Assembly: GCA_964488415.1 (NCBI GenBank)
Contig: CAZAUP010000001.1
Coordinates: 1-45,484, forward strand
DNA: 45,484 nucleotides
Direction: 5' to 3'
Source: an uncultured Lachnospiraceae bacterium
GTDB taxonomy: Bacteria > Bacillota > Clostridia > Lachnospirales > Lachnospiraceae
Shown here: one piece after another, positions 11,927-31,557 of the stretch
How positions within the stretch are numbered: position 1 is the first letter of the stretch
Layout of the letters: each line of letters opens with the position of its first letter
Notes under the pieces: model-generated
Database searches by the model: none
Seen by the model: the letters and a program-made list of their open reading frames with translations, nothing else
What the model was told of the DNA's origin: nothing
Translations under genes and position numbers: made by a program

Positions 11927-12025
11927 TTTAACAGACAGGAGAAGAGCATAGGCGGGAGTGTCCGCAAGGGGACGCGGCTTTTCCGTTCTCCTGCATAAGC
12001 AATGTGTTGGAATAGGAGGTCATAT

Positions 12026-14644: not shown

Positions 14645-14659
14645 AGGAGGGTAAACACA

Positions 14660-15412: not shown

Positions 15413-15492
15413 AAGGGTTCAATGATAAGTATGGCTGCCGAAGTCATGGTTATTATTGGCTCCGTTGATTTGCCTCATCACAATCAGATTAT

Positions 15493-15530
15493 AAAAAATC
15501 GCTGAAGTCTTACGGCTTCAGCGATTTTTT
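15493..15530. terminator. Bidirectional rho-independent terminator between convergent genes
   Basis: ATCGCTGAAG (15498-15507) / CTTCAGCGAT (15516-15525), flanked by an A-run upstream and a T-run downstream. Confidence 0.8.
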
Positions 15531-15567
15531 CGTAGAGAGCTTTTTACAGCCTCTTGAATCTGTATTC

Positions 15568-16719: not shown

Positions 16720-16750
16720 TTTAATACCCTCCAAATATGTAAAATAAAGT

Positions 16751-16777
16751 GTCGAATCTGCGATATACAAATTCGAC
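16751..16777. promoter_or_regulatory. Inverted repeat GTCGAAT-N13-ATTCGAC at the predicted transcription start of the CBM lipoprotein gene
   Basis: Perfect 7-bp arms at 16751-16757 and 16771-16777, a few nt downstream (minus-strand sense) of the TATAAT box. Confidence 0.35.
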
Positions 16778-16780
16778 CTC

Positions 16781-16809
16781 ATTATATCATTTCAAATGGA
16801 AAAGGTCAA
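16781..16809 (-). promoter_or_regulatory. sigma-A promoter TTGACC-17-TATAAT (minus strand) for the CBM lipoprotein gene
   Basis: The reverse complement of 16804-16809 is TTGACC and of 16781-16786 is TATAAT. The spacer is 17 nt. Confidence 0.6.
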
Positions 16810-17871: not shown

Positions 17872-18009
17872 AATAGGAATCCTCCTTGTGTTATTGTGAA
17901 ATTTGACGAAAAACTTTGCACTGGTGCGACAATAAAAAACAAAAAGCGTCAATAAATCAAAAATTGCTATTTTTACACACCGGAAGGGGCGGGATAAAGT
18001 GCATAAAAA

Positions 18010-18035: not shown

Positions 18036-18064
18036 TTGAAATTATACAAATATCATAATATAAT
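18036..18064 (+). promoter_or_regulatory. Strong sigma-A promoter TTGAAA-17-TATAAT for the nine-gene operon
   Basis: -35 at 18036-18041, 17-nt spacer, consensus -10 at 18059-18064. This leaves an approximately 350-nt leader before ATG 18418. Confidence 0.65.
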
Positions 18065-18417
18065 TAGTGTAGGTTGTAAAGAGCCGTTTTCTAATTTGTC
18101 GAATTCCGCCAAGGTGTCTTCGAGGGGCGCAACAGATGCGGATAGGAAAAGCAATATTTGATAGGCGCGATTCCGAAAAAAAGACTATAATGGCACTGTA
18201 CGATACAAAAAAAGCTTTTTCCGACCCTGCCTTTTTTGGTGAAACTGTACAAAGGTCGGGAAGAGAAAACCTTTGGTAATATTTATCAAAGGAAGAAAGC
18301 CGATACGCATTTTACAAAGAGCTGTTTCGACAGCTTTTAGAGAGGTGCGCGCCGGCTTTGGTTTGTCGTTACGGCAAACCGTGTGCGAAGGGAATATGCA
18401 CAGGAAAGGAGCAGACT

Positions 18418-21342
18418 ATGTCAAAAGGAAAGAAAATATTCCTTTCTGTAGCGGCTGTTGTTGCGGTTGCAGTGATTGTACTTATCATTGTATTCGGTAA
18501 CAAGGACACCAGCTTCAGAGAAAAGTATGAAGGGACAAATCTTGAAGTGACTGAAGGGGAGTTCGGACGAAGCGATACCTATGCTTTGTATCTGGATGCC
18601 CATGCAGATGCGGCAAGACCTCAGGCAGAAGAAATTGTAGTGGATTTGACCGCATATAATACGGCAAATGCAAAAAAGACTGAGGTAAAAAACAATTATG
18701 AAGGGGAAGATAAGGTTCTTTATCAGGAGGACAGCGGTTATACCGAGTGGCAGGTAAGTGTGCCGGAAAGCGGTATGTACCGTGTATATATTGAGTATTA
18801 TCCGGTAGAGTCCCGAGGGGTTAGCATGGAGCGCGCTTTCTATATTAATGGAGAGCTTCCGTTTTCGGGTTCCGATGCGTTGACATTCACGAGACGTTGG
18901 GCTGACGGCAGCGAGGTAAAGACCGACAATCAGGGAAATGATCGCCGGCCGACACAGGTGGAGGCACCGGATTGGTGTTCGGCATATTTCATGGACTACA
19001 TGGGATATTTTGCTGATCCGTATGAATATTATTTTGAAGCTGGAACCAGTACCATTGCTTTGGAGAGCGTGAACGAGCCGATGGCAATTCGTAAGCTTGC
19101 ATTGCGCCCTGTAACCGAAGTACAGACTTACGAGGAGTATCGTGCATCCCAGCCGAATGTAACCGGTGGCGTGGATTACATAAAGAAGTTCCAGGGTGAG
19201 AATTCGACGGTTCGTTCCGAGGCATCTCTCTATGCCCGTTCCGACCATTCCTCTCCGAATACGGAGCCATATAGTGTTACCGCGCAGAAGCTGAATTACG
19301 GCGGCGGCAGCAGCTGGAAAATTGCAGGTCAGTGGATTGAATGGGAAATTGAAGTGCCGGAGGACGGTTACTATAACATCAGTCTCAAGGCACGTCAGAA
19401 TGCCAGCCGTGGTGTTGTTTCCAACCGTATCATTTACATTGACGGCGAGGTTCCGTTTGAGGAGATGTCTGTTGTTTCGTTTAAATTCAGCAGCAACTGG
19501 GAAAACGTGGATCTGGCAGATGCGGAAGGCAATCCGTATGAGTTTTATCTGACTGCGGGTAAGCATACGCTTCGTATGGAGGTTACCTTAGGTGAGATGG
19601 GTACCATCTTAAATGACTTACAGGATTCCATGACGCGTTTAAATGAGATGTATCGTACCATTCTTGTATTAACCGGTGCATCTCCGGATAAGTACCGTGA
19701 TTACAAGATTGCAGAGATATATCCGGAGGTTATGGAAGGTCTGGAGTTAGAATACAAGCGTCTGTATGCACTGATTGATGAATCGGTAGAATATTCCGGT
19801 CAGCAGTCCGCATATCTTGCGGCAGTGCAGACCTTGGCAAAACAGATTGAGAAGTTTGTAAAAAATCCGGACAAGATTACAAAGCAGTTCGAAACCTTTA
19901 AGACGAATATCAGTGCACTTGGTACTTCTATTAATTCTCTTGCAGAGGGACCGCTTGACATTGATTACATTACCGTAACCGGTACAAATCAGGAGCCGGA
20001 GGAGGTAAAGAGCTCTATCTGGGCAAAGATTGCACATGAGGTTCGCTATTTCATTGCTTCCTTCACCGTTGACTATAATTCACTTGGTGATGTGTACGCA
20101 GGAGATGACTCGGAGGTAATCAATGTATGGATTCTGACCGGTCGTGACCAGAGCTCTGTGCTCAAGTCTCTTATCGATGAAATGTTTACACCGGAGACCG
20201 GTATTCCGGTTAACGTAAAGCTGGTACAGCAGCAGATGGTATTGAGTGCGACAATCGCAGGAACCGGTCCGGATATTGCGATTTCCATGCCGCAGAATGA
20301 GCCGGTAAACTACGCACTTCGTAATGCGGTAGAGGATTTGACCCAGTTTGAGGGCTGGGAAGAGCTGGTAGCCCAGTACAGCGACAGCTCTACGGCACCG
20401 TACTGGTTCGAGGGCGGCTTGTATGCGATGCCGGAGACACAGATTTTTAATGTAATGTTCTATCGTACCGATATTATGGAAGAGCTTGGCTTGGAGGTTC
20501 CGGAAACATGGGATGATTTAATTGATATGCTTCCGACCATCCAGCAGAACAACCTGGAGGTGGCAATTCCGTCTACGGAGCGTAAGTTTGGTAATATGGC
20601 TTCTCCGGACTTGTCTGCATTCATGGCTCTTTTGTATCAGAATGGAGGTTCCTTATATAATGAAGGAAACACCATGACAACGATTGACAGTGAAGCAGGT
20701 ATTAAGGCATTTGAAACCTACACGAGATTCTATTCTCACTATGGTCTGCCGACCACCTACGACTTTGCAACGCGTTTCCGTTCCGGTCAGATGCCAATTG
20801 GTATTCAGGACTATAACATTTACAACACATTAGCGGTTTCCGCACCGGAAATCAGAGGCTTGTGGGAGTTTGCATTGGTTCCGGGTATTGAGCAGGAGGA
20901 CGGCACGGTAGATCATTCCTGTTCTTCATGGGGCGTATGTACGATGCTGATGAAGAATGAGGAGCATTCGGAAGAGTTCAAGCAGAAGTGCTGGGAGTTC
21001 ATTAAGTGGTGGGCAAATTCCGAAACGCAGACCCGTTACGGTCGTGAGATGGAAGCAGTACTTGGTTCTTCCGCAAGACATACCACTGCAAACACGATTA
21101 CCTTTGATCAGCTTCCGTGGAATTCCAAGGAGATGGCTGTATTGAAGGAACAGTGGAGCTACACCGTAAAGATTCCGGAGGTAGCAGGTGGTTATTACAC
21201 AACCAGACATATTACGAATGCAGCACGTAAGGTTTATAACGACAAGGAAGACCCGCGTGAAACCCTGCGTGACTATGCAAAGACCATAAACGACGAGATC
21301 GAGAAGAAACGCCTTGAATTCGGTCTGCCGGTAGAGGAATAG
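18418..21342 (+). CDS. 974-aa membrane-anchored fusion protein: N-terminal TM helix, two CBM-like beta-sandwich repeats, a helical region, and a C-terminal extracellular solute-binding (CUT1 SBP) domain
   Basis: Start at ATG 18418 (MSKGKKIFLSVAAVVAVAVIVLIIVFG) behind AGGAAAGGAG. Internal repeat WQVSVPESGMYRVYIEYYP..SRGV...FYINGELPF...PYEYYFEAG versus WEIEVPEDGYYNISLKAR..SRGV...IYIDGEVPF...PYEFYLTAG. The C-terminal approximately 420 aa look like an SBP_bac_1-type binding protein. Two permease genes follow. Confidence 0.7.
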   Translation: MSKGKKIFLSVAAVVAVAVIVLIIVFGNKDTSFREKYEGTNLEVTEGEFGRSDTYALYLDAHADAARPQAEEIVVDLTAYNTANAKKTEVKNNYEGEDKVLYQEDSGYTEWQVSVPESGMYRVYIEYYPVESRGVSMERAFYINGELPFSGSDALTFTRRWADGSEVKTDNQGNDRRPTQVEAPDWCSAYFMDYMGYFADPYEYYFEAGTSTIALESVNEPMAIRKLALRPVTEVQTYEEYRASQPNVTGGVDYIKKFQGENSTVRSEASLYARSDHSSPNTEPYSVTAQKLNYGGGSSWKIAGQWIEWEIEVPEDGYYNISLKARQNASRGVVSNRIIYIDGEVPFEEMSVVSFKFSSNWENVDLADAEGNPYEFYLTAGKHTLRMEVTLGEMGTILNDLQDSMTRLNEMYRTILVLTGASPDKYRDYKIAEIYPEVMEGLELEYKRLYALIDESVEYSGQQSAYLAAVQTLAKQIEKFVKNPDKITKQFETFKTNISALGTSINSLAEGPLDIDYITVTGTNQEPEEVKSSIWAKIAHEVRYFIASFTVDYNSLGDVYAGDDSEVINVWILTGRDQSSVLKSLIDEMFTPETGIPVNVKLVQQQMVLSATIAGTGPDIAISMPQNEPVNYALRNAVEDLTQFEGWEELVAQYSDSSTAPYWFEGGLYAMPETQIFNVMFYRTDIMEELGLEVPETWDDLIDMLPTIQQNNLEVAIPSTERKFGNMASPDLSAFMALLYQNGGSLYNEGNTMTTIDSEAGIKAFETYTRFYSHYGLPTTYDFATRFRSGQMPIGIQDYNIYNTLAVSAPEIRGLWEFALVPGIEQEDGTVDHSCSSWGVCTMLMKNEEHSEEFKQKCWEFIKWWANSETQTRYGREMEAVLGSSARHTTANTITFDQLPWNSKEMAVLKEQWSYTVKIPEVAGGYYTTRHITNAARKVYNDKEDPRETLRDYAKTINDEIEKKRLEFGLPVEE

Positions 21343-21355
21343 AAAGGAGGATGAC

Positions 21356-22291
21356 ATGGGCAGTATTTTATCGCTGTATTTCAGCAAAAAGAAAAGAGAT
21401 TTCCGTGTAGCTTGGAAGAAGGCTAAGATGGCGAAGAGTTGTTACTTGTTCGTTCTTCCTTATGCTGTGTTGTTTACTTTGGTTATTGTAGTGCCGATTA
21501 TCATGTCTCTGGTACTCAGCTTCACCTACTATAACGTATTGGAGATACCGAAATTTGTAGGTCTGCAGAACTACATTAACCTTATCCTGGCGGATGATGT
21601 ATTCTTAACCGCAGTAAAGAATACACTTGTTTTGGCAGTTATTATCGGACCGGGCGGTTATATTGCATCGTTCCTGTTCGCATGGCTGATTAACGAGCTG
21701 CCGCGTTATTTAAAGGCGGTTGCGATTGTGTGCTTCTATGCACCGTCTATTTCAGGTCAGGCGTATACGATTTGGCAATTGATTTTCAGTAACGATGCTT
21801 ACGGTTGGGCGAACTCCCTGCTTGCGGAGTTCGGTCAGGAACCAATCCTTTGGCTTTCCAATCCGGATTATATGCTGACCGTTGTAGTTGTTGTTTCCTT
21901 ATGGATGAGCTTGGGTAATGGTTTCCTTGGCTTCGTAGCAGGTTTGCAGGGCGTTGACCGTTCCCAGTACGAGGCAGCCTATGTGGATGGCATTAAGAAC
22001 CGTTGGCAGGAGCTTTGGTATATCACGCTTCCGAGTATGAAGCCGATGCTGCTCTTTGGTGCAATCAACTCCATTACCACCGCATTTGGTGTATCCGATA
22101 TCCCGGAAGCACTTTGCGGTATGCCGAGTACGGACTATGCGGTACACACCATGGTAACGCACCTGAAGGATTATGGTCAGTTACGTTACGAAATGGGTTA
22201 TGCGTCCGCAGTAGCAACCATTCTCTTCCTTATCATGCTTCTTTGTAATAAATTTATTCAGGGTCTGTTAAACAGAGTCGGAACAAACTAA
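21356..22291 (+). CDS. CUT1 sugar ABC transporter permease (MalF/UgpA-like), set A
   Basis: 311 aa, 6 TM. EAA loop EAAYVDGIKNRWQELWYITLPSMKP. Confidence 0.9.
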   Translation: MGSILSLYFSKKKRDFRVAWKKAKMAKSCYLFVLPYAVLFTLVIVVPIIMSLVLSFTYYNVLEIPKFVGLQNYINLILADDVFLTAVKNTLVLAVIIGPGGYIASFLFAWLINELPRYLKAVAIVCFYAPSISGQAYTIWQLIFSNDAYGWANSLLAEFGQEPILWLSNPDYMLTVVVVVSLWMSLGNGFLGFVAGLQGVDRSQYEAAYVDGIKNRWQELWYITLPSMKPMLLFGAINSITTAFGVSDIPEALCGMPSTDYAVHTMVTHLKDYGQLRYEMGYASAVATILFLIMLLCNKFIQGLLNRVGTN

Positions 22292-22348
22292 GAAGCAAAG
22301 AGCAAAGGGTACGTCCAAAAGGGCGAAGTATAGAAAAGGAGAGAAACA

Positions 22349-23209
22349 ATGGCAAAGATAAAAAAGAAAAAGCGTCAAAATCGGTCCCTGGGGGGCGATA
22401 TCGCAGTTTATTTGGTATTGATTTTGTTCGGCGCATTCATGGTAATTCCGCTGATATACGCCGCATGTCTGGCGTTTAAGCCGTTGGACGAGGTGTTGAA
22501 GAATCCGCCGGACATTTTGGTAAAGAACCCGACGTTAGATAACTTCTCTGACCTGTTTATTGTAATGGGTCAGAACTGGGTGCCGTTTACCAGATATCTG
22601 TTTAACACACTGTTCATTACTGCGGCAGGTACGGCAGGACAGCTGCTTGTGGCATCCATGGGTGCGTATGTGCTTGCGAAGTTTGATTTTCCGGGCGGAA
22701 AGAAATTCTTCAAAATGGTTACTACCGCAATCATGTTCAACGGTTACATTACACAGATTCCGTTGTATCTGGTTATGGCAAAGTTTGGCTGGGTGGATAC
22801 CTATATTGCACCGATTATTCCGGCAATTGCTGCTCCGATGGGTCTCTTCCTGATGAAGCAGTTCATGGAGGGTATTCCGGATTCCCTGATTGAAGCTGCA
22901 AAGATTGACGGTGCGAAGGAATGGGGGATTTTTACAAAAATTGTCATGCCGAATGTTAAGCCGGCATGGCTGACCCTCATTATCTTTTCGGTGCAGTCAC
23001 TGTGGAGTAATCAGCAGTCTACCTACATTTACTCTGAGGAGTTAAAGACACTGCCGTATGCGTTGTCTCAGGTGCAGGCCGGCGGTATTGCACGTGCCGG
23101 TGCAGGTGCAGCGGTATCTCTGGTTATGATGATTGTGCCGATTGGCGTATTCATTTTCTCTGAGAGTAACATTCTGGAGACTATGGCAAGCTCCGGTATT
23201 AAAGAATAG
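22349..23209 (+). CDS. CUT1 sugar ABC transporter permease (MalG/UgpE-like), set A
   Basis: 286 aa. EAA loop EAAKIDGAKEWGIFTKIVMPNVKP. Confidence 0.9.
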   Translation: MAKIKKKKRQNRSLGGDIAVYLVLILFGAFMVIPLIYAACLAFKPLDEVLKNPPDILVKNPTLDNFSDLFIVMGQNWVPFTRYLFNTLFITAAGTAGQLLVASMGAYVLAKFDFPGGKKFFKMVTTAIMFNGYITQIPLYLVMAKFGWVDTYIAPIIPAIAAPMGLFLMKQFMEGIPDSLIEAAKIDGAKEWGIFTKIVMPNVKPAWLTLIIFSVQSLWSNQQSTYIYSEELKTLPYALSQVQAGGIARAGAGAAVSLVMMIVPIGVFIFSESNILETMASSGIKE

Positions 23210-23225
23210 CAAGGAGGAGAGACGT

Positions 23226-24758
23226 ATGAAATTAAGAAAGAAAATTGTAGCAGCTCTCCTTGGTGCGGTGACAGTGCTCAGCATTTGTCCGACCGGAGTT
23301 GCACAGGCAACCGAAGTGAACACATATACATACAATTACGATTTCTGGGGAATCGAGTATGAGTCTCCGGATGCATACAAGGCAACCACCTTTGTTACGG
23401 GAGAGAGTCTTGGTACGACGGAGCTTAAAGCACCGCAGGGTATGTATATTCGTGATGACAGGGTGTATATCGCAGATACCGGTAACAGCCGTATTCTTGA
23501 GCTTCAGGTAAACGGAGCAGAGCTTACGCTGGTACGTGAAATCAAGGAGTTTAAGGGAGATGCGGAGGTAACGACCTTTAATTTGCCGCAGGATGTATTT
23601 GTAACGGCAGATGGAGAGCTCTTTATTGCAGATACCGAGAATCAGAGAGTGGTTCATTTGGATAATGACTTAAATCTGATAAAGTTTATTACCCAGCCGG
23701 TGGATGATCCGACGGTAGACGTGACACTTTCCTTCCTTCCGACGAAGGTGGTGGCAGACCGTGCAGGCCGTGCGTTTGTACTGGTAAAGAGTGTTAATAA
23801 GGGCTTTATGGAGTTTGAGGCAAATGGTGAGTTTATCGCATATGTAGGCGCAAATGAGGTAGTGTTCAATATGGCGGATTACATCAAGAAGGTGTTCTCT
23901 ACCAAGGAACAGCGTGCGCAGATGGAGAGCTTTACGCCGACGGAGTACAATAACCTCTATATTGATGGCAATGGTTTCGTTTATTGTACCACATCGGTAT
24001 TCGATGTGGGTGCGTTGAAATCTGACGCGGCAAAGCCGATTCGTAAGCTTAATTCGCTCGGAAAGGATATTTTAATCAAAAATGCAGAGTATCCGCCGAT
24101 TGGTGATTTACAGTGGGATAATGTAGCCGGTATGGACGGACCGTCCCGTCTTGTAGACATTACGGCATTCGAGAATGAAATGTATTTTGCAATTGACCGT
24201 GTCAGAGGCCGTATTTTCGGTTATGACGAGCAGGGAAATCTGCTGTATGCATTCGGCGGCCCGGGCAACAAGCTCGGATACTTCCAGAATCCGGTGGCGA
24301 TTGACCATATGGGAACGGATTTGTTTGTATTAGACTCCACCTCCGGCGGTCTGACCAGATTCCAGTTAACCGAATTCGGACAGTTAATCTACAATGGTCT
24401 GGAGCAGTATGACATCGGTGAGTATGAAAAGTCTGCGGAGTACTGGACTGAGGTTCTGGAGTTAAACGGGAACTACGACCTTGCGTATATCGGTATCGGC
24501 AGAGCACTTCTCGGACAGGGAAAGTACGAAGAAGCGATGCAGTACTTTGAAGTAAAGCGCGATGATGATAATTATTCTCGTGCATGGAAGTATTACCGTA
24601 AGGAGTGGATTGAGGAAAACTTAGGATATGTTATTATTGTCCTTGCAGTCCTTATTTTAGTACCGGGTGTAATTAAGCTGGTGAAGAAAATCAAGAAGGA
24701 GGCGCGAGAAGAGTATGAATTTCAAATTGAATTGGTACGACGTAATAAACAAATCTAA
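23226..24758 (+). CDS. Secreted NHL-repeat beta-propeller protein with TPR-like repeats and a C-terminal TM anchor
   Basis: Start at ATG 23226 (MKLRKKIVAALLGAVTVLSICPTGVAQA signal peptide, AGGAGG RBS). NHL-like blades (VYIADTGNSRILEL, LFIADTENQRVVHL, LFVLDSTSGGLTRF). TPR-like EYEKSAEYWTEVLELNGNYDLAYIGIGRALLGQGKYEEAMQYF. TM helix GYVIIVLAVLILVPGVI followed by a basic tail. Confidence 0.65.
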   Translation: MKLRKKIVAALLGAVTVLSICPTGVAQATEVNTYTYNYDFWGIEYESPDAYKATTFVTGESLGTTELKAPQGMYIRDDRVYIADTGNSRILELQVNGAELTLVREIKEFKGDAEVTTFNLPQDVFVTADGELFIADTENQRVVHLDNDLNLIKFITQPVDDPTVDVTLSFLPTKVVADRAGRAFVLVKSVNKGFMEFEANGEFIAYVGANEVVFNMADYIKKVFSTKEQRAQMESFTPTEYNNLYIDGNGFVYCTTSVFDVGALKSDAAKPIRKLNSLGKDILIKNAEYPPIGDLQWDNVAGMDGPSRLVDITAFENEMYFAIDRVRGRIFGYDEQGNLLYAFGGPGNKLGYFQNPVAIDHMGTDLFVLDSTSGGLTRFQLTEFGQLIYNGLEQYDIGEYEKSAEYWTEVLELNGNYDLAYIGIGRALLGQGKYEEAMQYFEVKRDDDNYSRAWKYYRKEWIEENLGYVIIVLAVLILVPGVIKLVKKIKKEAREEYEFQIELVRRNKQI

Positions 24759-25389
24759 AGGAAGAAAATTCTTAGACTCCCTCCGCTATGCGCTGTATGT
24801 AATTACACATCCGTTCGACGGCTTTTGGGATTTGACGCATGAAAAAAGAGGTACTGTTGCATCTGCACATGTATTAGTATTTTTATTCTTTATGACAAAC
24901 CTTTGGAGTATGCGTTATTCAAACTTTATGTTTAACAATGTGCTTTGGGAAAAGGTTAACATTTGGATGCAGATTGCGGGCAGCATTGCTCCGATAGTAA
25001 TTTACTGCGCGGCGAACTGGTGTCTGACCACGCTGTTTGACGGTAAAGGACGGTTCTCGGATGTATATATCGGAACGGCGTATGCGTTGACTCCGTATAT
25101 TATTCTGACTAATATTGCTACCATTGTCAGCAATTTTGTAACCGTGGAAGAAGGAGCATTCATCACCATTTTCAACGGATTTGCATTAATCTGGTGCGGT
25201 TTCCTGATTCTGGTTTCCGTTATGCAGATTCATGACTATTCTCTTGGAAAGGCTGTGCTTGCGATTATCGCTTCTGTAGCGGGCATGATGATTATCGTAT
25301 TCTTGTTGCTGCTGTTTTTCAGCTTAATCAGTGACGGTATTGCATTCTTTGTATCGATATACAAGGAAATCATGTTCCGCGTGTACTAA
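24715..25389 (+). CDS. Yip1-domain-like 5-TM membrane protein
   Basis: 224 aa. THPFDGFWDL N-terminal motif followed by five hydrophobic helices. The start overlaps the upstream gene by 44 nt. Confidence 0.6.
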   Translation: MNFKLNWYDVINKSKGRKFLDSLRYALYVITHPFDGFWDLTHEKRGTVASAHVLVFLFFMTNLWSMRYSNFMFNNVLWEKVNIWMQIAGSIAPIVIYCAANWCLTTLFDGKGRFSDVYIGTAYALTPYIILTNIATIVSNFVTVEEGAFITIFNGFALIWCGFLILVSVMQIHDYSLGKAVLAIIASVAGMMIIVFLLLLFFSLISDGIAFFVSIYKEIMFRVY

Positions 25390-25408
25390 CCGAAAGGAGG
25401 ATATATAA

Positions 25409-27949
25409 GTGAAACGAATTGGTAAAATGTTAGTATTCCTTCTTTTGGCAGGAAGCCTGTGTGCCTGTGGTGAGGACGAAGTAGAAAAGGAAATTGTGAT
25501 TCGCTCTTACGATGAGGAAGTACACGGTGCAGAGGAATATAAACTGGAGAATGATGATTTGATTTTTGAGCTGGATCCTTCCACCACCTATTTTACGGTA
25601 ACGCAGAAGTCTACCGGCAAGGTATGGCGTTCCAATCCGGAGGATGGTGCAAACGATCCGAATGCGGATGCTGCAGGTAAAAAGTATTTACAGTCAACAC
25701 TTTTAATTGAGTACAATACTGAGAATGGCGTAAATACGATTTTGAACAATTACGAGTTCAGTATTGCCAACGGCATTTACGAGCTGGAGAAGACGGAGGA
25801 TGAAATCCGCGTATTATACACAATCGGTAAGGTTACAAAAACCTTCTATGTGCCGCCGGCAGTTCCGGAATCCCGTATGATGGAGTTCTACGAGAAGATG
25901 GAGCGTTCGCAGCAGAAGAAGATTGATACCTACTATCGCCGCTATGACATTAACAATCTGTTTGCAACTGATGATAAGTCAGAGCTTTTAGAAACTTATC
26001 CGGATCTTGCAAACGAGCGTGTTTATGTAGTCCGCGAGGGTACGAAGGAGTACCTGATGCGTCAGATGGAGGACATTTTCGCATCAGTAGGCTATACGGC
26101 TGATGATTATGCGGAGGATAAGGCTCGTTACAATGTTTCCACGCAGGAGAATAAAGCAATTATTAACCTGACCTTGGTTTATCGTATCGAGGACAATAAG
26201 CTTGTGGTAGAGATTCCGCATGATGAAATCGAGTACAAGTCGGATTATCCGCTGACAAAAATATCCCTGCTTCCGTACTTCGGTGCAGGCAGCATGGAGG
26301 ATGAAGGCTACATTCTTGTTCCGGAAGGCTCCGGCGCAGTTATTAACTTCAACAATGGTAAGTCCGAACAGTCCGCATATTACGCAGATGTATACGGCTG
26401 GGATTATGACCAGAAGCGAGAGGCAATCGTAGACGAAACAAGAGTGGCAATTCCGGTATACGGAATTGCAAACGGGGACAGCTCTTTTGTGGCAATCATG
26501 GAAGAGTACAGTACCATCGCTACGATTCAGGCAGACGTGAGTGGTCGCCGTCACAGCTTCAATTCTGCATATGCCACCTACGAAATTGTTCACGGTGATA
26601 CCATGGATATTTCCGCAAAGTCCGACCGTACCATTATGGCGTTTGAAAAGAATGTTCCGGAGGGCAGTACGGTACAGACCTATACCTTTATTGAGGGCAC
26701 GGATTATGTAGATATGGCTGAGGTATATCGTGAATACTTACAGGAAAAGTATCCGGAGCTTACGAAGGTAGAGGAAACAGAGCTTCCGGTTGCAGTGGAG
26801 TTTATTGGTGCGATTGACCGTATCAAGCAGATTCTTGGTATGCCGATTAAGCGTCCGGAGGTGCTGACCTCGTTTGCAGATGCAAAGACAATTTTAGAGG
26901 ATATGCTGGCAACCGGCTATGAGAACATTTCCGTGCGTTATAGCGGCTGGATGAACGGCGGTGTGACCCACTCCATTCCGAAGGACATTGATTTGACCAG
27001 CGGCATGGGCGGTAAAAAGGCACTGAACGCATTGATGGATTATGCAAACAGCAATGATATCGATATTTATTTAAACGGTCGTGTGCAGTTTGAGTACGAT
27101 AGTGATTTGCTTGACGGCTTTATTCGCTCCAGAGATGCGGCAAAGTACATCAGCCGTGAGATTACGGAGCTGTACGCATACTCCAACATTACATTTGGTG
27201 AGCTGTCCACAGATCGTCAGGAAACGTACCATCTGCTCCGTCCTAGTGTTTGCGTGAAGCTGATGGACAATTTGGCAGAGGCGGCTGAAAAGTATAAGGC
27301 AGGTGTTTCCTTCGAGGAAGTAGGCTATCTTCTCAGTGCAGATTATAATCCGAGAAGAACCGTGACCCGTGAGGAATCTATGAAGATGCAGATGGAGACG
27401 TTGGCTGAAATCAAGGCAAAGGGTACTCCGATTATGCTTTCTGCAGGTAATGAATATGCACTTGCCTATGCAGATATTATTGTAAACGTAGATTTAGAAG
27501 GAAAGGATTATCAGCTTCTTGACTATAAGGTTCCGTTCTATGAAATTGCAGTGCATGGTTTGATTAATTACACCGGCGATGCCATCAACCTTGCAGATGA
27601 TGCGTTGGATATTGTGCTTAAGTCTGCTGAGTCGGGTGCCGGTCTTTCCTTCACATTTATGAGCGAATCGTCGGATATATTGCAGAATACCGAGTACATG
27701 GAGTATTTTGCTGCCGATTATACGCAGTGGAAGGAAAGAGCAGCCGGTTATTATGTCCGTTATAAAGAAGAAATGGCGGGCTTAAACAACCAGTTTATCG
27801 TAGACCATGATGTGCTTGCAGCGGGAGTTACGGCAACTACCTATGAGGACGGTACCGTAGTATACGTAAACTACAATACAACAGCTTACGAGGACGGTGC
27901 TTTATCCGTTCCGGCAAGAGATTATCTGGTAGAAAGGAGCGGGAACTAA
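25409..27949 (+). CDS. 846-aa lipoprotein of unknown function (from memory it resembles the family catalogued as DUF5696; unverified)
   Basis: GTG start behind AAAGGAGGA. Lipobox LLAGSLCAC. No motif I can assign to a known GH/PL/CE family. The stop codon directly abuts the next permease start. Confidence 0.6.
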   Translation: MKRIGKMLVFLLLAGSLCACGEDEVEKEIVIRSYDEEVHGAEEYKLENDDLIFELDPSTTYFTVTQKSTGKVWRSNPEDGANDPNADAAGKKYLQSTLLIEYNTENGVNTILNNYEFSIANGIYELEKTEDEIRVLYTIGKVTKTFYVPPAVPESRMMEFYEKMERSQQKKIDTYYRRYDINNLFATDDKSELLETYPDLANERVYVVREGTKEYLMRQMEDIFASVGYTADDYAEDKARYNVSTQENKAIINLTLVYRIEDNKLVVEIPHDEIEYKSDYPLTKISLLPYFGAGSMEDEGYILVPEGSGAVINFNNGKSEQSAYYADVYGWDYDQKREAIVDETRVAIPVYGIANGDSSFVAIMEEYSTIATIQADVSGRRHSFNSAYATYEIVHGDTMDISAKSDRTIMAFEKNVPEGSTVQTYTFIEGTDYVDMAEVYREYLQEKYPELTKVEETELPVAVEFIGAIDRIKQILGMPIKRPEVLTSFADAKTILEDMLATGYENISVRYSGWMNGGVTHSIPKDIDLTSGMGGKKALNALMDYANSNDIDIYLNGRVQFEYDSDLLDGFIRSRDAAKYISREITELYAYSNITFGELSTDRQETYHLLRPSVCVKLMDNLAEAAEKYKAGVSFEEVGYLLSADYNPRRTVTREESMKMQMETLAEIKAKGTPIMLSAGNEYALAYADIIVNVDLEGKDYQLLDYKVPFYEIAVHGLINYTGDAINLADDALDIVLKSAESGAGLSFTFMSESSDILQNTEYMEYFAADYTQWKERAAGYYVRYKEEMAGLNNQFIVDHDVLAAGVTATTYEDGTVVYVNYNTTAYEDGALSVPARDYLVERSGN

Positions 27950-28876
27950 GTGAAAGCAAGAGCAAAGAAACCTAGAAATTTACGCAGACGCAATGCGATT
28001 GCGGGATATCTTTTCATCAGTCCTTTCATTATCGGATTTGTGGCATTTATGTTAAAGCCGATGTTTGAATCCTTCCGGATGAGCCTTAGCCGTGTTACGG
28101 TAAATGCTTCCGGAAGCGGAGAGCCGTTTGTAATGGATTTTATTACAAACTTTAAGGAATCGAATTACTTTTATGCATTCTTACGAGACCCGGAATTTAA
28201 GAACCTCTTAGTCGAGACGCTAAAGGATATGGCAATTCAGGTTCCATCCATTTTGGTGTTCAGCTTCTTTATAGCGTTGCTGTTAAATCAGAATTTCAAG
28301 GGAAGAGGCTTTGTAAGAGCAGTATTCTTCCTGCCGGTAATTTTGGCATCTGGTATTTTAGTCGGTCTGGAAACCGATAATGTGTTAATGTCGGGTATGA
28401 AGGATGTTATTTCTGAATCGTCCGGCGCTACCATTACCGCTACACTGGAGGAAATTTTGAAAACGTCCGGTGTCGGGGGAAAGATTTTGGACCCGGTATT
28501 TACGATTATTGATTCGGTATATGATATTGCACTTGCTTCCGGTATTCAGATTATTATCTTTATTTCCGGTTTGCAGACGGTGTCGCCGAGCATGTACGAG
28601 GCAGCAAAGATTGAGGGCTGCAGCGCATGGGAAAGCTTCTGGAAGATTACCTTCCCGATGGTAAGCTCCATGATTCTCGTAAATTTGATTTACTCTGTAG
28701 TTGACTTCTTTATGCGAACAGATAATGAAGCCATGGAATTGATTACCGAAAAGATTAACCCGGAAATGAACTACGGTTTGGGTTCCGCAATGGCGTGGAG
28801 CTACTTCGGCATTGTAGTGGTAGTCTTAGGTATTCTTGTAGCGATTATTTCGAAGAAGGTGTACTATTATGAGTAA
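27950..28876 (+). CDS. CUT1 sugar ABC transporter permease (MalF-like), set B
   Basis: GTG start immediately after the upstream TAA (GGAG 10 nt upstream). EAA loop EAAKIEGCSAWESFWKITFPMVSS. Confidence 0.85.
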   Translation: MKARAKKPRNLRRRNAIAGYLFISPFIIGFVAFMLKPMFESFRMSLSRVTVNASGSGEPFVMDFITNFKESNYFYAFLRDPEFKNLLVETLKDMAIQVPSILVFSFFIALLLNQNFKGRGFVRAVFFLPVILASGILVGLETDNVLMSGMKDVISESSGATITATLEEILKTSGVGGKILDPVFTIIDSVYDIALASGIQIIIFISGLQTVSPSMYEAAKIEGCSAWESFWKITFPMVSSMILVNLIYSVVDFFMRTDNEAMELITEKINPEMNYGLGSAMAWSYFGIVVVVLGILVAIISKKVYYYE

Positions 28877-29867
28877 AGCGAAAGTAGTGAAAAGAAAAGA
28901 CTTCTGGGAGCGGAATAAAAAGACACACGGCTATCTTTTAAAGAAGAAAATCGGTGAGTATTCTTTCCGTGTGATTAGGGCATTGCTTCTGTTCGGCTTA
29001 TGCTTTTTGATTCTGCAACCGCTTATTAACAAGTTATCCGTCAGCTTTATGGAGCAGGAGGACTTGTATGATGCAACTGTTATTTCCATTCCGCGTAACT
29101 TTACCCTTGGGAACTACAGGCTGGTAGATTACCTGATTGGTTACTGGGAGTGTATGTGGAATTCCTTATGGGTGTCCTTTGTGGTTGCGGTGCTTCAGGT
29201 GATTGCTTGTACCCTTGTAGGCTACGGCTTTGCAAGATTTAAGTTTCCGTTTAAAAGCTTTTGGTTCGGTTGCGTAATTCTTGTTATTATCGTGCCGCCG
29301 CAGACGATTATGAGCTCCCTGTACTTAAACTTCCGTTATTTTGATGTATTCGGCATTATTAAGCTGATTACGGGACATACGCTGAACCTTCAGTCCTCCA
29401 TGGCACCGTACCTGATGATGTGTGCTACCTGTATGGGTCTGAAGTGCGGTCTGTACATTTATATGCTCCGTCAGTTCTTCCGTGGTATTCCGAAGGAGCT
29501 GGAGGAGGCAGCTTATGTGGATGGCTGCGGTACGCTTGCAACCTTCTTCCGTATCATGCTTCCGGATGCAAAGTCCATGATTACATCCTGCTTCCTGTTT
29601 GCCTTTGTATGGCAGTGGACAGATTCCTTCTATACGAAGATGTTCCTCGGAAACATGGAGGTATTGACCAAGGGTCTGAACTCTATTGCAGGTCGTCTGG
29701 ATAATTATGTGGAGCAGATGGGTATGGGTACACTTGCAAGTGAAGCATTCCTTCAGCAGACCATTTCAACCGGTATTTTAATGGCAATAGCACCGTTGCT
29801 TATCTTATATCTCTTCGCTCAGAAGGGTTTTGTAGAGAGCTTGAGCCAGACCGGTATTAAAATGTAA
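28869..29867 (+). CDS. CUT1 sugar ABC transporter permease (MalG-like), set B
   Basis: The start overlaps the upstream stop (ATGAGTAA). EAA loop EAAYVDGCGTLATFFRIMLPDAKS. Confidence 0.85.
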   Translation: MSKAKVVKRKDFWERNKKTHGYLLKKKIGEYSFRVIRALLLFGLCFLILQPLINKLSVSFMEQEDLYDATVISIPRNFTLGNYRLVDYLIGYWECMWNSLWVSFVVAVLQVIACTLVGYGFARFKFPFKSFWFGCVILVIIVPPQTIMSSLYLNFRYFDVFGIIKLITGHTLNLQSSMAPYLMMCATCMGLKCGLYIYMLRQFFRGIPKELEEAAYVDGCGTLATFFRIMLPDAKSMITSCFLFAFVWQWTDSFYTKMFLGNMEVLTKGLNSIAGRLDNYVEQMGMGTLASEAFLQQTISTGILMAIAPLLILYLFAQKGFVESLSQTGIKM

Positions 29868-29897
29868 CAAGAAATTATTAAATATTGCAGAAAAAAC

Positions 29898-29926
29898 TAG
29901 CAATTTTTAATGAGGTATGTTATAAT
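29898..29926 (+). promoter_or_regulatory. Possible internal promoter with extended -10 (TAGCAA-17-TGtTATAAT) ahead of the second SBP gene
   Basis: TATAAT at 29921-29926 preceded by TGT. Weak -35 at 29898-29903. Confidence 0.4.
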
Positions 29927-30028
29927 ACATCTAGATAGTTGATGCAGAGGCATTCGCTATACAAAGAGGAGTCGACATTTAAGTCGAATGGGACGCCAAA
30001 CCCAAATTAAAAAAGGAGGAATTTTGGT

Positions 30029-31444
30029 ATGAGAATTAAGAAGTATGCTGCAGCGTTTCTTGCTGCAACCACTGTACTTGGCAGCATGGCTGCTTGTGGC
30101 GGTGACAAAGATGTAGCTGCAACTCCGGCACCGACCAAGGGCGCAGATCAGGACAATGACAAGGATAATGATACCGACCCGACCCCGACGGATGAGCCGG
30201 CAAGAGATCTTGGCGGTATGGAAATTATCATCGGTGACCACTGGTCTCCGGAAGAGCCGAACCCGCCGGCAAGTGCTCAGGAAGAGGCTACCTTGGCTTA
30301 CCGTAACGAGATTATGGCTAAGTACAATTTCACCATGAAGCAGGTTGCTGTAGCAGGCTGGGGTGAGATGACCGATACCTGTACGAACTCTATCCTTGCT
30401 GGAGATCCGGCAGCAGAAGTATTCGTACTTGATTCCAGCTTTGTTTCTAAGCCGATGAGCAATGGTTTGTTCTATGACTTAGCTACCTTGGAAGAGTTTG
30501 ATTTCACTGAAGATAAGTGGAATAAGGAAGCAATCAGCCTGATGACCATTGGCGATTCCATCTATGGTATGGTTTCCGGCAGCCGTCCGGAGGCTAGACT
30601 TGGTCTTTTCTGGAACAAGAGACTGTTCGAGGAAGCTGGTCTTGATCCGGATCTTCCGTATGAATTACAGAAGAGCGGCGAGTGGACCTGGTCCAAGTTC
30701 AAGGAAATCTGTGCACAGCTGACCCGTGATACCAATGCAGACGGTGTGGTTGACACCTACGCTATGGGTAACTTTGGTCCGGATATCTGTAAGGCACTTA
30801 TCAACTCCACCGGTACCGAGCTTATTACTGTAGAGAATGGTCAGTTTGTAAACAACTCCGGTTCCCAGAATGTTCTTGATGCATTGAACTTTGCTAAGGA
30901 GCTTGGTGATGCAGGCTATGAGATGCCGCAGCCGGATGGTTCCCAGTGGGATTGGTACAAGGCAGCATTCTCTGATGGTTGGTTCGCAATGCAGTTCAAC
31001 GAGACCTACATGGCTAACCAGACTTGGGCTGACATGGAAGATGACTTTGGTTTTGTATGCTGCCCGAAGCCGGATGGCGCTGATACCTATCACACCATCT
31101 TCAACGAGAATATCGTAATTATTCCGTCTTGCTTTGATGCAGCTACTGCTTCTAACATCGCTTTCGCATATAACCTTTGGACGAATCCGACCCCGGGTTA
31201 TGAAGAGGACGATGACTGGAAGGATACCTATTACACCAGATTCCGTGATGAGAGAGCAGTTGATGAAACTCTTGAAATCTTCTTCTCTGAAGGTGTTGGT
31301 AGCTTCGAGCACTTAGCACTTGTATACGGCGTAAGCTACGGCGATATCTGCTATTCTTATCCGTTTGCTTCCCAGACTCCGGCTGAGAAGATCGAGGAGA
31401 TTAAGAATACTTGGGATTCTGCAATCGCAGAGGCTAATAAGTAA
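30029..31444 (+). CDS. CUT1 extracellular solute-binding lipoprotein, set B
   Basis: Lipobox LGSMAACGG, Asp/Pro/Thr-rich linker, 471 aa with a typical sugar-SBP size. Strong RBS AAGGAGG. Confidence 0.85.
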   Translation: MRIKKYAAAFLAATTVLGSMAACGGDKDVAATPAPTKGADQDNDKDNDTDPTPTDEPARDLGGMEIIIGDHWSPEEPNPPASAQEEATLAYRNEIMAKYNFTMKQVAVAGWGEMTDTCTNSILAGDPAAEVFVLDSSFVSKPMSNGLFYDLATLEEFDFTEDKWNKEAISLMTIGDSIYGMVSGSRPEARLGLFWNKRLFEEAGLDPDLPYELQKSGEWTWSKFKEICAQLTRDTNADGVVDTYAMGNFGPDICKALINSTGTELITVENGQFVNNSGSQNVLDALNFAKELGDAGYEMPQPDGSQWDWYKAAFSDGWFAMQFNETYMANQTWADMEDDFGFVCCPKPDGADTYHTIFNENIVIIPSCFDAATASNIAFAYNLWTNPTPGYEEDDDWKDTYYTRFRDERAVDETLEIFFSEGVGSFEHLALVYGVSYGDICYSYPFASQTPAEKIEEIKNTWDSAIAEANK

Positions 31445-31475
31445 TATGACACGGCTTTACATAGGCGTGTAAATG

Positions 31476-31499
31476 AAGGGGCGGTTTTACCGCCCCTTT
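31476..31499 (+). terminator. Rho-independent terminator ending the nine-gene operon
   Basis: AAGGGGCGG (31476-31484) / CCGCCCCTT (31490-31498), loop TTTTA. Confidence 0.65.
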
Positions 31500-31557
31500 A
31501 TGTAAATAAAGGGATGTATAATTGTGGAACGGATGCGGTGTGAAAGGAGAGGTGCGT

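What the first reader, a model, noticed from the sequence alone, without database searches (positions are those of the whole stretch)
18418..31444. Nine-gene envelope operon: two complete CUT1 ABC importers bracket a three-gene module of unknown function, with no ATPase gene
Seen in sequence:
- One strong promoter (18036-18064) and one terminator (31476-31499) frame nine same-strand genes.
- The junctions, in order, are a 13-nt gap, 57-nt gap, 16-nt gap, 44-nt overlap, 19-nt gap, 0-nt gap, 8-nt overlap and 161-nt gap.
- The gene order is SBP(974 aa), permease, permease, NHL/TPR protein, Yip1-like protein, 846-aa lipoprotein, permease, permease, SBP(471 aa).
- All four permeases carry EAA loops, so there are two full membrane translocators with two different binding proteins.
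- No nucleotide-binding subunit is encoded anywhere in the operon.

Established knowledge: Gram-positive CUT1 importers commonly borrow a shared MsmK-type ATPase.

Inference: embedding three extracytoplasmic or membrane non-transporter proteins between two importers, under translational coupling, is not the standard CUT1 layout. It suggests a stoichiometric surface capture, processing and import machine, functionally analogous to a Gram-negative Sus/PUL outer-membrane complex. The flanking GH10, GH3, GH43, GH67 and CE15 genes and the divergent AraC regulator suggest xylan-derived substrates.
Basis: partly seen in the sequence, partly recalled or inferred. Interest (0 to 1): 0.85.

Follow-up and report, generated by a model that had tools for sequence, protein, structure and literature searches.

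The report
Conserved dual sugar-importer cassette with accessory triad
This is a real nine-gene xylan-uptake operon whose two sugar importers always travel with three uncharacterised surface/membrane proteins in many gut and plant-degrading Firmicutes; the same layout has been listed, but never studied, in Caldicellulosiruptor.

Summary
Nine same-strand genes (18418-31444) encode:
- a 974-aa anchored binding protein
- two permeases
- an NHL/TPR protein
- a Yip1 protein
- an 846-aa DUF5696 lipoprotein
- two more permeases
- a 471-aa binding lipoprotein

Every junction length is as stated, all four permeases carry EAA loops, and there is no ATPase gene.

New findings:
1. The nine-gene order is identical in 60 of 81 related loci; 20 more are only cut by contig ends.
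2. In distant Bacillota the same gene set is reordered, and NHL and Yip1 are fused into one protein (at least 120 clusters).
3. The invariant core is NHL-Yip1, DUF5696 and the second permease pair. The first pair is dispensable.
4. DUF5696 has a GH129/GH101-like glycosidase fold.
5. Flanking enzymes vary (xylan, mannan, GH30, GH4, sulfatases), so the cassette is not tied to one substrate.
6. A conserved internal promoter precedes the last gene.
7. C. bescii's xylan-induced XDL operon is annotated with the same layout (xloEFG-NHL-GH129-axoFGE).

I file the locus as a new member of a catalogued, mechanistically uncharacterised operon type.

The parts
16894..17952 (-). Divergent AraC-family regulator (cupin sensor plus HTH_18); the likely local regulator of the operon.
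   Evidence: Pfam HTH_18, HTH_AraC and AraC_binding. An AraC homologue sits upstream of the cassette in many related loci.
18036..18064 (+). Main sigma-70-type promoter, TTGAAA-17-TATAAT.
   Evidence: Best + strand match, 11 of 12. Invariant in 13 relatives.
18070..18417 (+). About 350-nt conserved 5' leader with several conserved hairpins; a possible regulatory RNA or operator array.
   Evidence: Length and sequence blocks are conserved in 13 relatives. RNAalifold predicts 58 pairs, 9 with compensatory changes. No Rfam match.
18418..21342 (+). SBP974: N-terminal transmembrane anchor, two homologous CBM6/35-like modules, a helical region and a C-terminal CUT1 solute-binding domain.
   Evidence: Pfam SBP_bac_1 at residues 581-871. 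PDB sugar-binding proteins and CBM35 hits. Sub-threshold CBM_35/CBM_6 hits in homologues. Internal repeat E 1e-12. Transmembrane segment 7-25.
21356..22291 (+). PermA1, CUT1 permease (MalF/UgpA-like).
   Evidence: BPD_transp_1, 61.9 bits. EAAYVDG motif.
22349..23209 (+). PermA2, CUT1 permease (MalG/UgpE-like).
   Evidence: BPD_transp_1, 44.6 bits. EAAKIDG motif.
23226..24758 (+). Secreted six-bladed NHL beta-propeller plus TPR, with a C-terminal transmembrane helix.
   Evidence: Pfam NHL and TPR. PDB NHL and TPR hits. 36% identity to residues 18-491 of the fused protein P0402. AlphaFold2 and Foldseek of the fused homologue.
24715..25389 (+). Yip1-family polytopic membrane protein. Its gene overlaps the NHL gene by 44 nt, and it is fused to the NHL protein in other lineages.
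   Evidence: Pfam Yip1, 46.6 bits. 42% identity to residues 536-741 of P0402. Fusion seen in L086. At least 120 fused clusters.
25409..27949 (+). DUF5696 lipoprotein with a GH129/GH101-like fold: beta-sandwich, (beta/alpha)8 barrel, beta-sandwich. A candidate surface glycosidase.
   Evidence: Pfam PF18952, 642 bits. AlphaFold2 pLDDT 77.5. Foldseek 5opq E 5e-29. Profile against GH129 PDB sequences E 9.5e-11. Conserved D645, D705 and E741. Conserved Cys20 lipobox.
27950..28876 (+). PermB1, a divergent CUT1 permease. Its start abuts the DUF5696 stop codon.
   Evidence: BPD_transp_1, 26.2 bits against a 26.4 cut-off. EAAKIEG motif and six hydrophobic segments. Always directly follows DUF5696.
28869..29867 (+). 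PermB2, CUT1 permease. Overlaps PermB1 by 8 nt.
   Evidence: BPD_transp_1, 40.9 bits. EAAYVDG motif.
29897..29926 (+). Probable internal promoter (CTAGCA-N17-TATAAT with a TG-extended -10) for the distal binding-protein gene.
   Evidence: Conserved in 11 relatives; sequence. Consistent with the AxoE read counts in C. bescii.
30029..31444 (+). SBP471, a lipoprotein CUT1 solute-binding protein with a Pro/Thr/Asp-rich linker.
   Evidence: SBP_bac_1, 45.2 bits. Lipobox MAAC.
31473..31501 (+). Intrinsic-terminator-like hairpin with a 13-bp stem.
   Evidence: dG -22.3 kcal/mol, z -4.78.
31558..32925 (+). GH10 xylanase lipoprotein. The likely surface enzyme that makes the oligosaccharides the cassette imports.
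   Evidence: Pfam GH10. Lipobox LGGC at the N-terminus. A GH10 gene follows the cassette in most related loci.

Best explanation
The nine genes form one conserved glycan-uptake cassette, here wired into a xylan regulon.

Shown:
- Two type-I (CUT1) ABC translocators with their own binding proteins are encoded without an ATPase.
- The second translocator (PermB1/PermB2 plus SBP471) is always accompanied by a membrane-anchored NHL-propeller/TPR protein joined to, or fused with, a Yip1 membrane domain.
- It is also always accompanied by a surface lipoprotein with a GH129-like fold.
- A roughly 1000-aa membrane-anchored binding protein with two CBM6/35-like modules is usually present.

Inferred:
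- Surface lipoproteins (GH10 xylanase, CE15 esterase, CBM4_9 protein) cut xylan near the membrane.
- The CBM-bearing SBP974 and SBP471 capture the products.
- The GH129-like lipoprotein trims or hands over oligosaccharides at the mouth of the B translocator.
- NHL-Yip1 acts as a membrane scaffold that holds the extracellular parts at the permeases, in the way YknW (Yip1 family) organises the YknXYZ ABC complex.
- An unlinked MsmK-type ATPase powers both translocators.
- Cytoplasmic GH10, GH43, GH3 and GH67 enzymes finish degradation.
For: Components:
- Gene content, domains and EAA loops.
- All extracytoplasmic parts are anchored. SBP974 has a transmembrane helix, the NHL protein has a signal peptide plus a C-terminal transmembrane helix, and DUF5696 and SBP471 have lipoboxes.

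Conservation:
- Identical order in 60 full and 20 truncated loci, with no violations.
- The same set appears in reordered form in L087-L089 and in window order with a fused NHL-Yip1 in L090.
- NHL-Yip1 fusion.
- Conserved tight or overlapping junctions.

DUF5696:
- GH129/GH101/GH36/GH31-like fold.
- Acidic residues conserved in at least 90% of 136 diverse sequences.

Energy supply:
- No ATPase next to the cassette anywhere.
- C. bescii uses a separately encoded, xylan-responsive msmK (PMC8579813).

Expression and pathway:
- In C. bescii the genes annotated with the same layout, including the NHL (Athe_0177) and 'GH129' (Athe_0178) genes, are induced on xylan.
- Surface versus cytoplasmic sorting of the flanking enzymes.

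Precedent:
- A Yip1 protein acts as an ABC-complex assembly factor in YknWXYZ (PMC4887032).
Against: - No direct evidence of physical contact between any of the parts.
- Catalytic residues of DUF5696 could not be mapped onto GH129 by superposition.
- The window protein has Glu where 23 of 24 close relatives have Asp at position 637.
- The cassette sits beside very different enzymes (xylan, mannan, GH4, sulfatases). That is awkward for a side-chain-specific glycosidase role.
- The A permease pair is absent in L091 and L092, so the two translocators need not act together.
- A conserved internal promoter argues against strict stoichiometric co-expression of SBP471.
- The link to C. bescii rests on published annotation. 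I could not fetch those sequences.
Confidence: 0.5

Rival explanations
1. Co-regulation only. The operon holds two independent oligosaccharide importers, for example one for linear and one for substituted xylo-oligosaccharides as annotated in C. bescii. It also holds an unrelated surface enzyme and a membrane protein. These are kept together by selection for joint expression, not by physical interaction.
For: - Two CUT1 importers in one xylan regulon is ordinary. The C. bescii annotation reads XloEFG = xylo-oligosaccharide and AxoEFG = arabinoxylo-oligosaccharide.
- The internal promoter before SBP471 suggests separable expression.
- The A pair is absent in L091 and L092.
Against: - The NHL-Yip1 / DUF5696 / PermB1 / PermB2 adjacency survives gene reordering and changes of substrate context across classes of Bacillota.
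- DUF5696|PermB1 and NHL|Yip1 junctions overlap or abut in nearly all loci.
- A gene kept only for xylan co-expression should not follow the cassette into mannan, GH4 or sulfatase loci.
Confidence: 0.3
2. DUF5696 is a non-catalytic docking or glycan-binding lid. The GH129-like lipoprotein has lost, or never had, hydrolase activity. It acts with the NHL propeller as an extracellular receptor platform that feeds long glycans to the B translocator.
For: - The cassette's independence from any one substrate fits a generic structural role better than one linkage specificity.
- No hit to any curated GH family model in Pfam or NCBIfam.
- E637 in the window versus Asp in relatives.
Against: - Polar and acidic residues D332, E365, D645, R654, D705, N727 and E741 are conserved in at least 90% of 136 diverse sequences.
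- These residues lie after successive barrel strands, as in active (beta/alpha)8 glycosidases.
- The nearest structures are all active retaining glycosidases.
Confidence: 0.15
3. The anchored giant binding protein, the NHL propeller and the Yip1 protein form a surface sensor that reports polysaccharide availability, rather than a transport accessory.
For: - NHL propellers serve as extracellular sensor domains, for example in PknD.
- Binding-protein domains are used as sensors in some systems (general knowledge).
Against: - None of the nine proteins has a kinase, HTH, GGDEF or other output domain.
- The local regulator is a cytoplasmic AraC/cupin protein.
- The giant binding protein is normally followed directly by two permeases.
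Confidence: 0.05

Closest known systems
Xylan degradation locus (XDL) operon of Caldicellulosiruptor/Anaerocellum bescii: xloEFG - Athe_0177 (NHL) - Athe_0178 ('GH129') - axoFGE (PMC8579813, PMC12285236)
   Same: - By published annotation the order is the same: binding protein, two permeases, NHL-repeat protein, GH129-like protein, two permeases, binding protein, followed by xylanases.
- It is xylan-induced.
- The ATPase (msmK) is encoded elsewhere.
   Different: - The regulators are LacI-type XynR plus AraR, rather than a divergent AraC.
- Only one gene number lies between the permeases and the 'GH129' gene, so NHL and Yip1 are probably fused there (inference).
- The triad has never been characterised.
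- I could not compare sequences directly.
Standard CUT1 (TCDB 3.A.1.1) oligosaccharide ABC importers of Gram-positive bacteria that share an MsmK/MsmX ATPase
   Same: - Binding protein plus two BPD_transp_1 permeases with EAA loops.
- No linked ATPase.
   Different: - Three extra conserved membrane or surface proteins.
- A roughly 1000-aa membrane-anchored binding protein with two CBM-like modules.
- Two translocators in one unit.
GH129 glycoside hydrolases (ZgGH129 3,6-anhydro-D-galactosidase, PDB 5opq/8rzk; NagBb alpha-N-acetylgalactosaminidase, 5wzp)
   Same: - Three-domain fold (Foldseek E 5e-29 and 2e-19).
- Weak profile similarity in the N-terminal sandwich and the start of the barrel (E 9.5e-11).
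   Different: - 11-14% identity.
- A separate Pfam family (DUF5696).
- About 200 extra residues.
- Catalytic residues not mapped and no known activity.
- Always encoded directly upstream of an ABC permease.
YknWXYZ of Bacillus (Yip1-family YknW as accessory of an ABC transporter; PMC4887032)
   Same: A bacterial Yip1-family membrane protein is encoded with an ABC transporter. There it is reported to modulate complex assembly.
   Different: - YknYZ is a MacB-type exporter with a membrane fusion protein.
- Here the partners are type-I importers, and the Yip1 domain is linked to an extracellular NHL propeller.
Bacteroidota Sus-like polysaccharide utilisation loci
   Same: - One locus combines surface glycan binding, surface enzymes, transport and a regulator.
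- The cassette is reused for different glycans.
   Different: - No SusC (TonB-dependent transporter) or SusD.
- No outer membrane.
- Transport is by ABC importers.
- This is a functional analogy only.

Membership tests
CUT1 ABC importer (system A: SBP974, PermA1, PermA2) | Extracytoplasmic binding protein of the SBP_bac_1/SBP_bac_8 type. | tested here: met
   PF01547 79.4 bits and PF13416 73.5 bits in residues 581-874. PDB sugar-binding proteins such as 5ysb, E 9.5e-15.
CUT1 ABC importer (system A: SBP974, PermA1, PermA2) | Two BPD_transp_1 permeases, each with an EAA loop. | tested here: met
   61.9 and 44.6 bits. EAAYVDG and EAAKIDG motifs.
CUT1 ABC importer (system B: PermB1, PermB2, SBP471) | Binding protein plus two BPD_transp_1 permeases with EAA loops. 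| tested here: met
   - SBP471: PF01547, 45.2 bits.
- PermB2: 40.9 bits.
- PermB1: 26.2 bits, just under the 26.4 cut-off, but with an EAAKIEG motif and six hydrophobic segments.
CUT1 ABC importer (both systems) | A cognate ATP-binding subunit (MsmK/MsmX/MalK type). | tested here: not met
   - No ABC_tran domain in the nine genes; the window's only one belongs to another system.
- Only two weak, unrelated nucleotide-binding-domain hits in 1.69 Mb of 89 related loci.
- A shared ATPase encoded elsewhere is expected but cannot be seen from this window.
Glycoside hydrolase family GH129 | Three-domain fold with a central (beta/alpha)8 barrel. | tested here: met
   AlphaFold2 model with pLDDT 77.5. 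Foldseek 5opq E 4.8e-29, TM-score (target) 0.69; 5wzp E 1.9e-19.
Glycoside hydrolase family GH129 | Significant full-length sequence similarity to family members. | tested here: inconclusive
   - The profile of 24 homologues hits ZgGH129 at E 9.5e-11, but only over residues 44-111 and 412-550.
- Pfam assigns only DUF5696.
- The C. bescii counterpart is labelled 'GH129' in PMC8579813.
Glycoside hydrolase family GH129 | Catalytic nucleophile and acid/base carboxylates after barrel strands 4 and 6. | tested here: inconclusive
   - D645 and D705 are conserved in at least 90% of 136 diverse sequences.
- They lie after predicted strands 632-635 and about 700.
- No structural superposition was possible and no activity data exist.
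Caldicellulosiruptor XDL transporter cassette | Gene order: binding protein, two permeases, NHL, GH129-like, two permeases, binding protein, in a xylan-induced operon. | not testable with these tools
   The order matches the published annotation and RNA-seq table. The Caldicellulosiruptor sequences could not be fetched for direct comparison.
Yip1 family (PF04893) | Pfam match above the gathering score, and a polytopic membrane protein. | tested here: met
   46.6 bits against a 28.6 cut-off, covering residues 28-197. Five-helix bundle in the AlphaFold2 model of the fused homologue.
Sus-like PUL (Bacteroidota) | An adjacent SusC-like TonB-dependent transporter and SusD-like lipoprotein. | tested here: not met
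   No such Pfam families in any of the 29 window proteins scanned.

The most novel reading that the evidence does not exclude
NHL-Yip1, the GH129-like DUF5696 lipoprotein and the B-type CUT1 permease pair, usually with the roughly 1000-aa anchored CBM-bearing binding protein, would form a physical supercomplex. This would be an unrecognised, substrate-independent class of glycan capture-and-import apparatus. It would be widespread in Bacillota, where DUF5696 alone has 3478 clusters at E <= 1e-30. It would amount to a Gram-positive counterpart of the SusCD principle, built on an ABC importer.
Probability: 0.3. Interest if true: 0.85.

Novelty: new member of a known kind. Interest (0 to 1): 0.58.

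Why it matters
How Gram-positive fibre degraders of the gut and rumen take up large, decorated oligosaccharides is much less understood than the Sus paradigm of Bacteroidota.

This cassette occurs in many Lachnospiraceae, Oscillospiraceae, Herbinix, Eubacterium xylanophilum, Halanaerobiia and Caldicellulosiruptor. It is reused for several glycans.

If its three accessory proteins are true subunits, they would define a new type of ABC importer accessory. They would also give a function to two large families of unknown role: DUF5696 and the bacterial NHL-Yip1 proteins. DUF5696 could also prove to be a new glycosidase activity of use in biomass conversion. The question can be tested directly in the genetically tractable C. 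bescii.

Tried and rejected
- **Papers mentioning DUF5696:** none found.
- **Papers combining Yip1, xylan and ABC transporter; NHL repeat with xylan; or Eubacterium xylanophilum with binding proteins:** nothing relevant.
- **PDB code 8RZG in papers:** only chance matches.
- **Rfam on the whole window:** no family at gathering score, so no known riboswitch explains the long leader.
- **NCBIfam:** no informative model for the Yip1, DUF5696 or SBP471 proteins.
- **Fetching a Caldicellulosiruptor homologue:** I picked AT-rich-looking representatives and NCBI-sourced fused proteins and listed their cluster members. No organism names were returned.
- **DUF5696 as a xylan-specific alpha-glucuronidase:** considered because SBP974's first CBM-like module weakly resembles uronic-acid-binding CBM35s. 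Set aside because the cassette also sits in mannan, GH4, GH42 and sulfatase contexts.
- **Programmed frameshifting to fuse NHL and Yip1 in the window:** considered because the two genes always overlap in different frames. Ordinary start/stop-overlap coupling explains this, and I found no evidence for frameshifting.
- **Pfam on the unusually long DUF5696 proteins (P0273, P0267):** no extra known domains.
- **Second structure job:** a single-sequence prediction of SBP974 was not attempted.

Full report
**1. The observation**

Pfam confirms each assignment:
- SBP_bac_1/SBP_bac_8 in the C-terminal 300 residues of the 974-aa protein.
- BPD_transp_1 in all four permeases. PermB1 scores 26.2 bits against a 26.4 cut-off.
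- NHL and TPR in gene 4.
- Yip1 in gene 5 (46.6 bits).
- DUF5696 in gene 6 (642 bits).
- SBP_bac_1 in gene 9.

All four permeases carry an EAAxxxG loop. None of the nine proteins has an ABC ATPase domain. The single ABC_tran gene in the window (1967-2773) sits with BPD_transp_2 and ABC_sub_bind genes of another transporter class.

The promoter-like site at 18036-18064 is the best + strand match in the region. The terminator is a 13-bp hairpin at 31473-31501 with dG -22.3 kcal/mol and z -4.8.

The flanks are a xylan regulon: GH67, UxuA, CE15, GH43, a divergent AraC, two GH10 and GH3.

**2. Where the proteins sit**

| Protein | Anchor or signal |
|---|---|
| SBP974 | One N-terminal transmembrane helix, no lipobox |
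| NHL/TPR protein | Cleavable signal peptide, C-terminal transmembrane helix, short basic tail |
| DUF5696 | Lipobox (conserved Cys20) |
| SBP471 | Lipobox |

Outside the cassette, GH10a (true start 31558), CE15 and the CBM4_9 protein are also lipoproteins. GH10b, GH3, GH43 and GH67 have no signal peptide. This is the usual Gram-positive split between surface depolymerisation and cytoplasmic finishing.

The 560-residue N-terminal extension of SBP974 has these features:
- Two homologous modules of about 140 residues (27% identity, E 1e-12).
- Weak similarity to CBM35 structures.
- Sub-threshold CBM_35/CBM_6 hits in the window protein's homologues.

**3. Conservation of the order**

A scan of one genome per species found 382 species genomes that encode DUF5696 relatives. 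The best 80 were fetched. I searched them with the nine window proteins and the flanking enzymes. Three further loci came from exact look-ups; L001, L003 and L004 are duplicates of scan loci and were excluded, leaving 81 non-duplicate loci:
- 60 carry all nine genes in the window's order.
- 20 are cut by contig ends but are consistent with that order.
- 1 has PermB2 split in two.
- None breaks the order.

Hosts include Lachnospiraceae, Herbinix, Mobilitalea, Anaerocolumna, Anaerotaenia torta, Eubacterium xylanophilum, Oscillospiraceae and one Treponema bin. DUF5696 identity falls as low as 37%.

Junction spacing is also conserved:

| Junction | Median (nt) |
|---|---|
| PermA2 / NHL | +12 |
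| NHL / Yip1 | -16 (always an overlap) |
| DUF5696 / PermB1 | -3 |
| PermB1 / PermB2 | -8 |
| PermB2 / SBP471 | +103 |

**4. Beyond the close clade**

DUF5696 is a large family: 5859 clusters (at 50% identity) at E <= 0.001 and 3478 at E <= 1e-30.

| Locus | Content |
|---|---|
| L085 (27% identity) | Same order, with two GH30 genes inserted before the last binding protein |
| L086 | NHL and Yip1 lie in one reading frame |
| L087-L089 (Halanaerobiia-type bins, Natronospora cellulosivora) | Same set, reordered: NHL-Yip1, DUF5696, PermB1, PermB2, small binding protein (upstream of NHL-Yip1 in L089), then giant binding protein, PermA1 and, where the locus reaches that far (L089), PermA2 |
| L090 | Window order, with NHL-Yip1 fused |
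| L091 | Only NHL-Yip1, DUF5696, the B pair and a small binding protein |
| L092 | Giant binding protein, NHL-Yip1, DUF5696 and only the B pair |

A search with the fused L086 protein returned at least 120 clusters of 700-750-aa proteins that carry both the NHL and Yip1 Pfam domains. The window's two proteins align to the two halves of one such protein, P0402: 36% identity (E 2e-99) and 42% identity (E 2e-43).

So the invariant core is NHL-Yip1 plus DUF5696 plus the B-type permease pair. The giant binding protein is usual. The A permease pair is frequent but dispensable.

**5. Substrate context**

Most close relatives sit among GH10, GH43, GH3, GH67 and UxuA genes. Other contexts also occur:

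| Locus | Neighbouring genes |
|---|---|
| L074 (Treponema bin) | GH5 and GH130 (mannan) |
| L085 | GH30 |
| L087 | GH1 |
| L088 | PL14 |
| L090 | GH4 and tagatose-pathway genes |
| L091 | GH42/35 |
| L092 | GH4 and two sulfatases |
| L023 (Anaerocolumna) | Only an AraC regulator |

The cassette is therefore a portable unit that is not tied to one substrate. In this window it serves xylan.

**6. What the triad looks like**

*DUF5696*
- An AlphaFold2 model built on 24 homologues has pLDDT 77.5 and pTM 0.76. It shows an N-terminal beta-sandwich, a (beta/alpha)8 barrel and a C-terminal beta-sandwich.
- The best PDB matches are the GH129 enzymes ZgGH129 (E 4.8e-29) and NagBb (E 1.9e-19). GH101, GH36 and GH31 follow.
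- A sequence profile reaches ZgGH129 at E 9.5e-11.
- Across 136 diverse family members, D332, E365, N385, D645, R654, D705, N727, E741, H800 and N821 are at least 90% conserved.
- D645 and D705 follow successive barrel strands. Related retaining glycosidases place their nucleophile and acid/base there. This is an inference; no superposition was possible.

*NHL-Yip1*
- The fused protein models well (pLDDT 87.9). It forms a six-bladed propeller, TPR-like helices, one long helix and a five-helix Yip1 bundle.
- Only the propeller has PDB neighbours, and they are ligand-binding NHL domains such as TRIM71 and PknD.

**7. Prior knowledge**

No paper mentions DUF5696. However, Rodionov et al. 2021 (PMC8579813) list the C. 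bescii XDL operon as xloEFG-X-GH129-axoFGE-xynFED-xyn10A-xynXB:

| Gene(s) | Annotation |
|---|---|
| Athe_0174-0176 | Predicted xylo-oligosaccharide importer |
[quoted passage not shown] | Athe_0179-0181 | Predicted arabinoxylo-oligosaccharide importer |

All these genes are induced on xylan, and msmK is encoded elsewhere. XynR binding to the XDL operator was later shown (PMC12285236).

The layout is thus catalogued, but the triad has not been studied. I could not obtain the Caldicellulosiruptor sequences, so this parallel rests on annotation. A Yip1-family protein, YknW, is reported to modulate assembly of the YknXYZ ABC complex (PMC4887032). That gives a precedent for the scaffold idea.

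**8. Regulation**

*The leader*
- The main promoter and a leader of about 350 nt are conserved in 13 relatives.
- The leader contains invariant blocks and several hairpins. Nine predicted pairs show compensatory changes.
- No Rfam family matches.
- More distant cassettes have unrelated leaders.

*The gap before SBP471*
- The 161-nt gap holds a conserved CTAGCA-N17-TATAAT element, followed by conserved hairpins.
- The distal binding protein gene probably has its own promoter.
- This fits the much higher AxoE read counts relative to AxoFG in some C. bescii conditions.

**9. Verdict**

- The cassette is a real, strongly conserved functional unit with a non-standard composition.
- Comparative data (order conservation, reordering with the set retained, the NHL-Yip1 fusion, coupled junctions) favour joint function.
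- A physical complex, a catalytic role for DUF5696 and the Sus analogy remain inference.
- The unit is centred on the second translocator rather than on "two importers".
- The cassette is not xylan-specific.
- An operon annotated with the same layout has already been listed in Caldicellulosiruptor.

I therefore file it as a new member of a catalogued but mechanistically uncharacterised operon type, of moderate-to-good interest.

Noticed in passing
window 18070-18417: The roughly 350-nt 5' leader is conserved in length and in sequence blocks in 13 relatives.
- It has several hairpins with compensatory changes, including a stem followed by a T-run (AGCTGTTTCGACAGCTTTT).
- It has no Rfam match.
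- It could be an attenuator, a regulatory RNA or an operator array.
- It is restricted to the window's clade.
   Followed up: partly
window 29868-30028: The gap before SBP471 holds a conserved promoter-like CTAGCA-N17-TATAAT (TATAAT at 29921-29926) and conserved downstream hairpins, seen in 11 relatives. This suggests separate or boosted expression of the distal binding protein.
   Followed up: partly
L003 14462-14842: In this relative the same intergenic region carries a tandem duplication of about 200 nt that includes the TATAAT element.
   Followed up: no
L074 (Treponema sp. MAG) 3177-15895: A complete nine-gene cassette sits in a spirochaete bin, flanked by GH5 and GH130 (mannan) genes. 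This is either horizontal transfer into a diderm or a binning error.
   Followed up: partly
P0273 (2431 aa), P0267 (1622 aa): These are giant DUF5696 proteins.
- They have an N-terminal transmembrane anchor.
- They carry an acidic helical insert.
- They have many C-terminal repeats resembling the family's last beta-domain ('..G..VYVNYTD..').
- No Pfam family other than DUF5696 was found.
   Followed up: partly
window 27317-27319 (DUF5696 residue 637): The window protein has Glu where 23 of 24 close homologues have Asp, at a position just after a barrel strand. The significance is unknown.
   Followed up: no
window 15568-16782 (- strand), 8447-10072: A lipoprotein with two CBM_4_9 domains and a lipoprotein CE15 glucuronoyl esterase flank the operon. 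Both are likely additional surface components of the xylan system.
   Followed up: partly
window 12002-15412: An AdhE-type bifunctional aldehyde/alcohol dehydrogenase and an APH-family kinase lie between the GH43 gene and the cassette. The kinase gene is also kept next to the cassette in several relatives (L007, L011, L013, L036).
   Followed up: no
L088 and L089 (Natronospora cellulosivora): One genome carries at least two copies of the cassette in different enzyme contexts: PL14 in one, and GH67/GH3/UxuA in the other.
   Followed up: no
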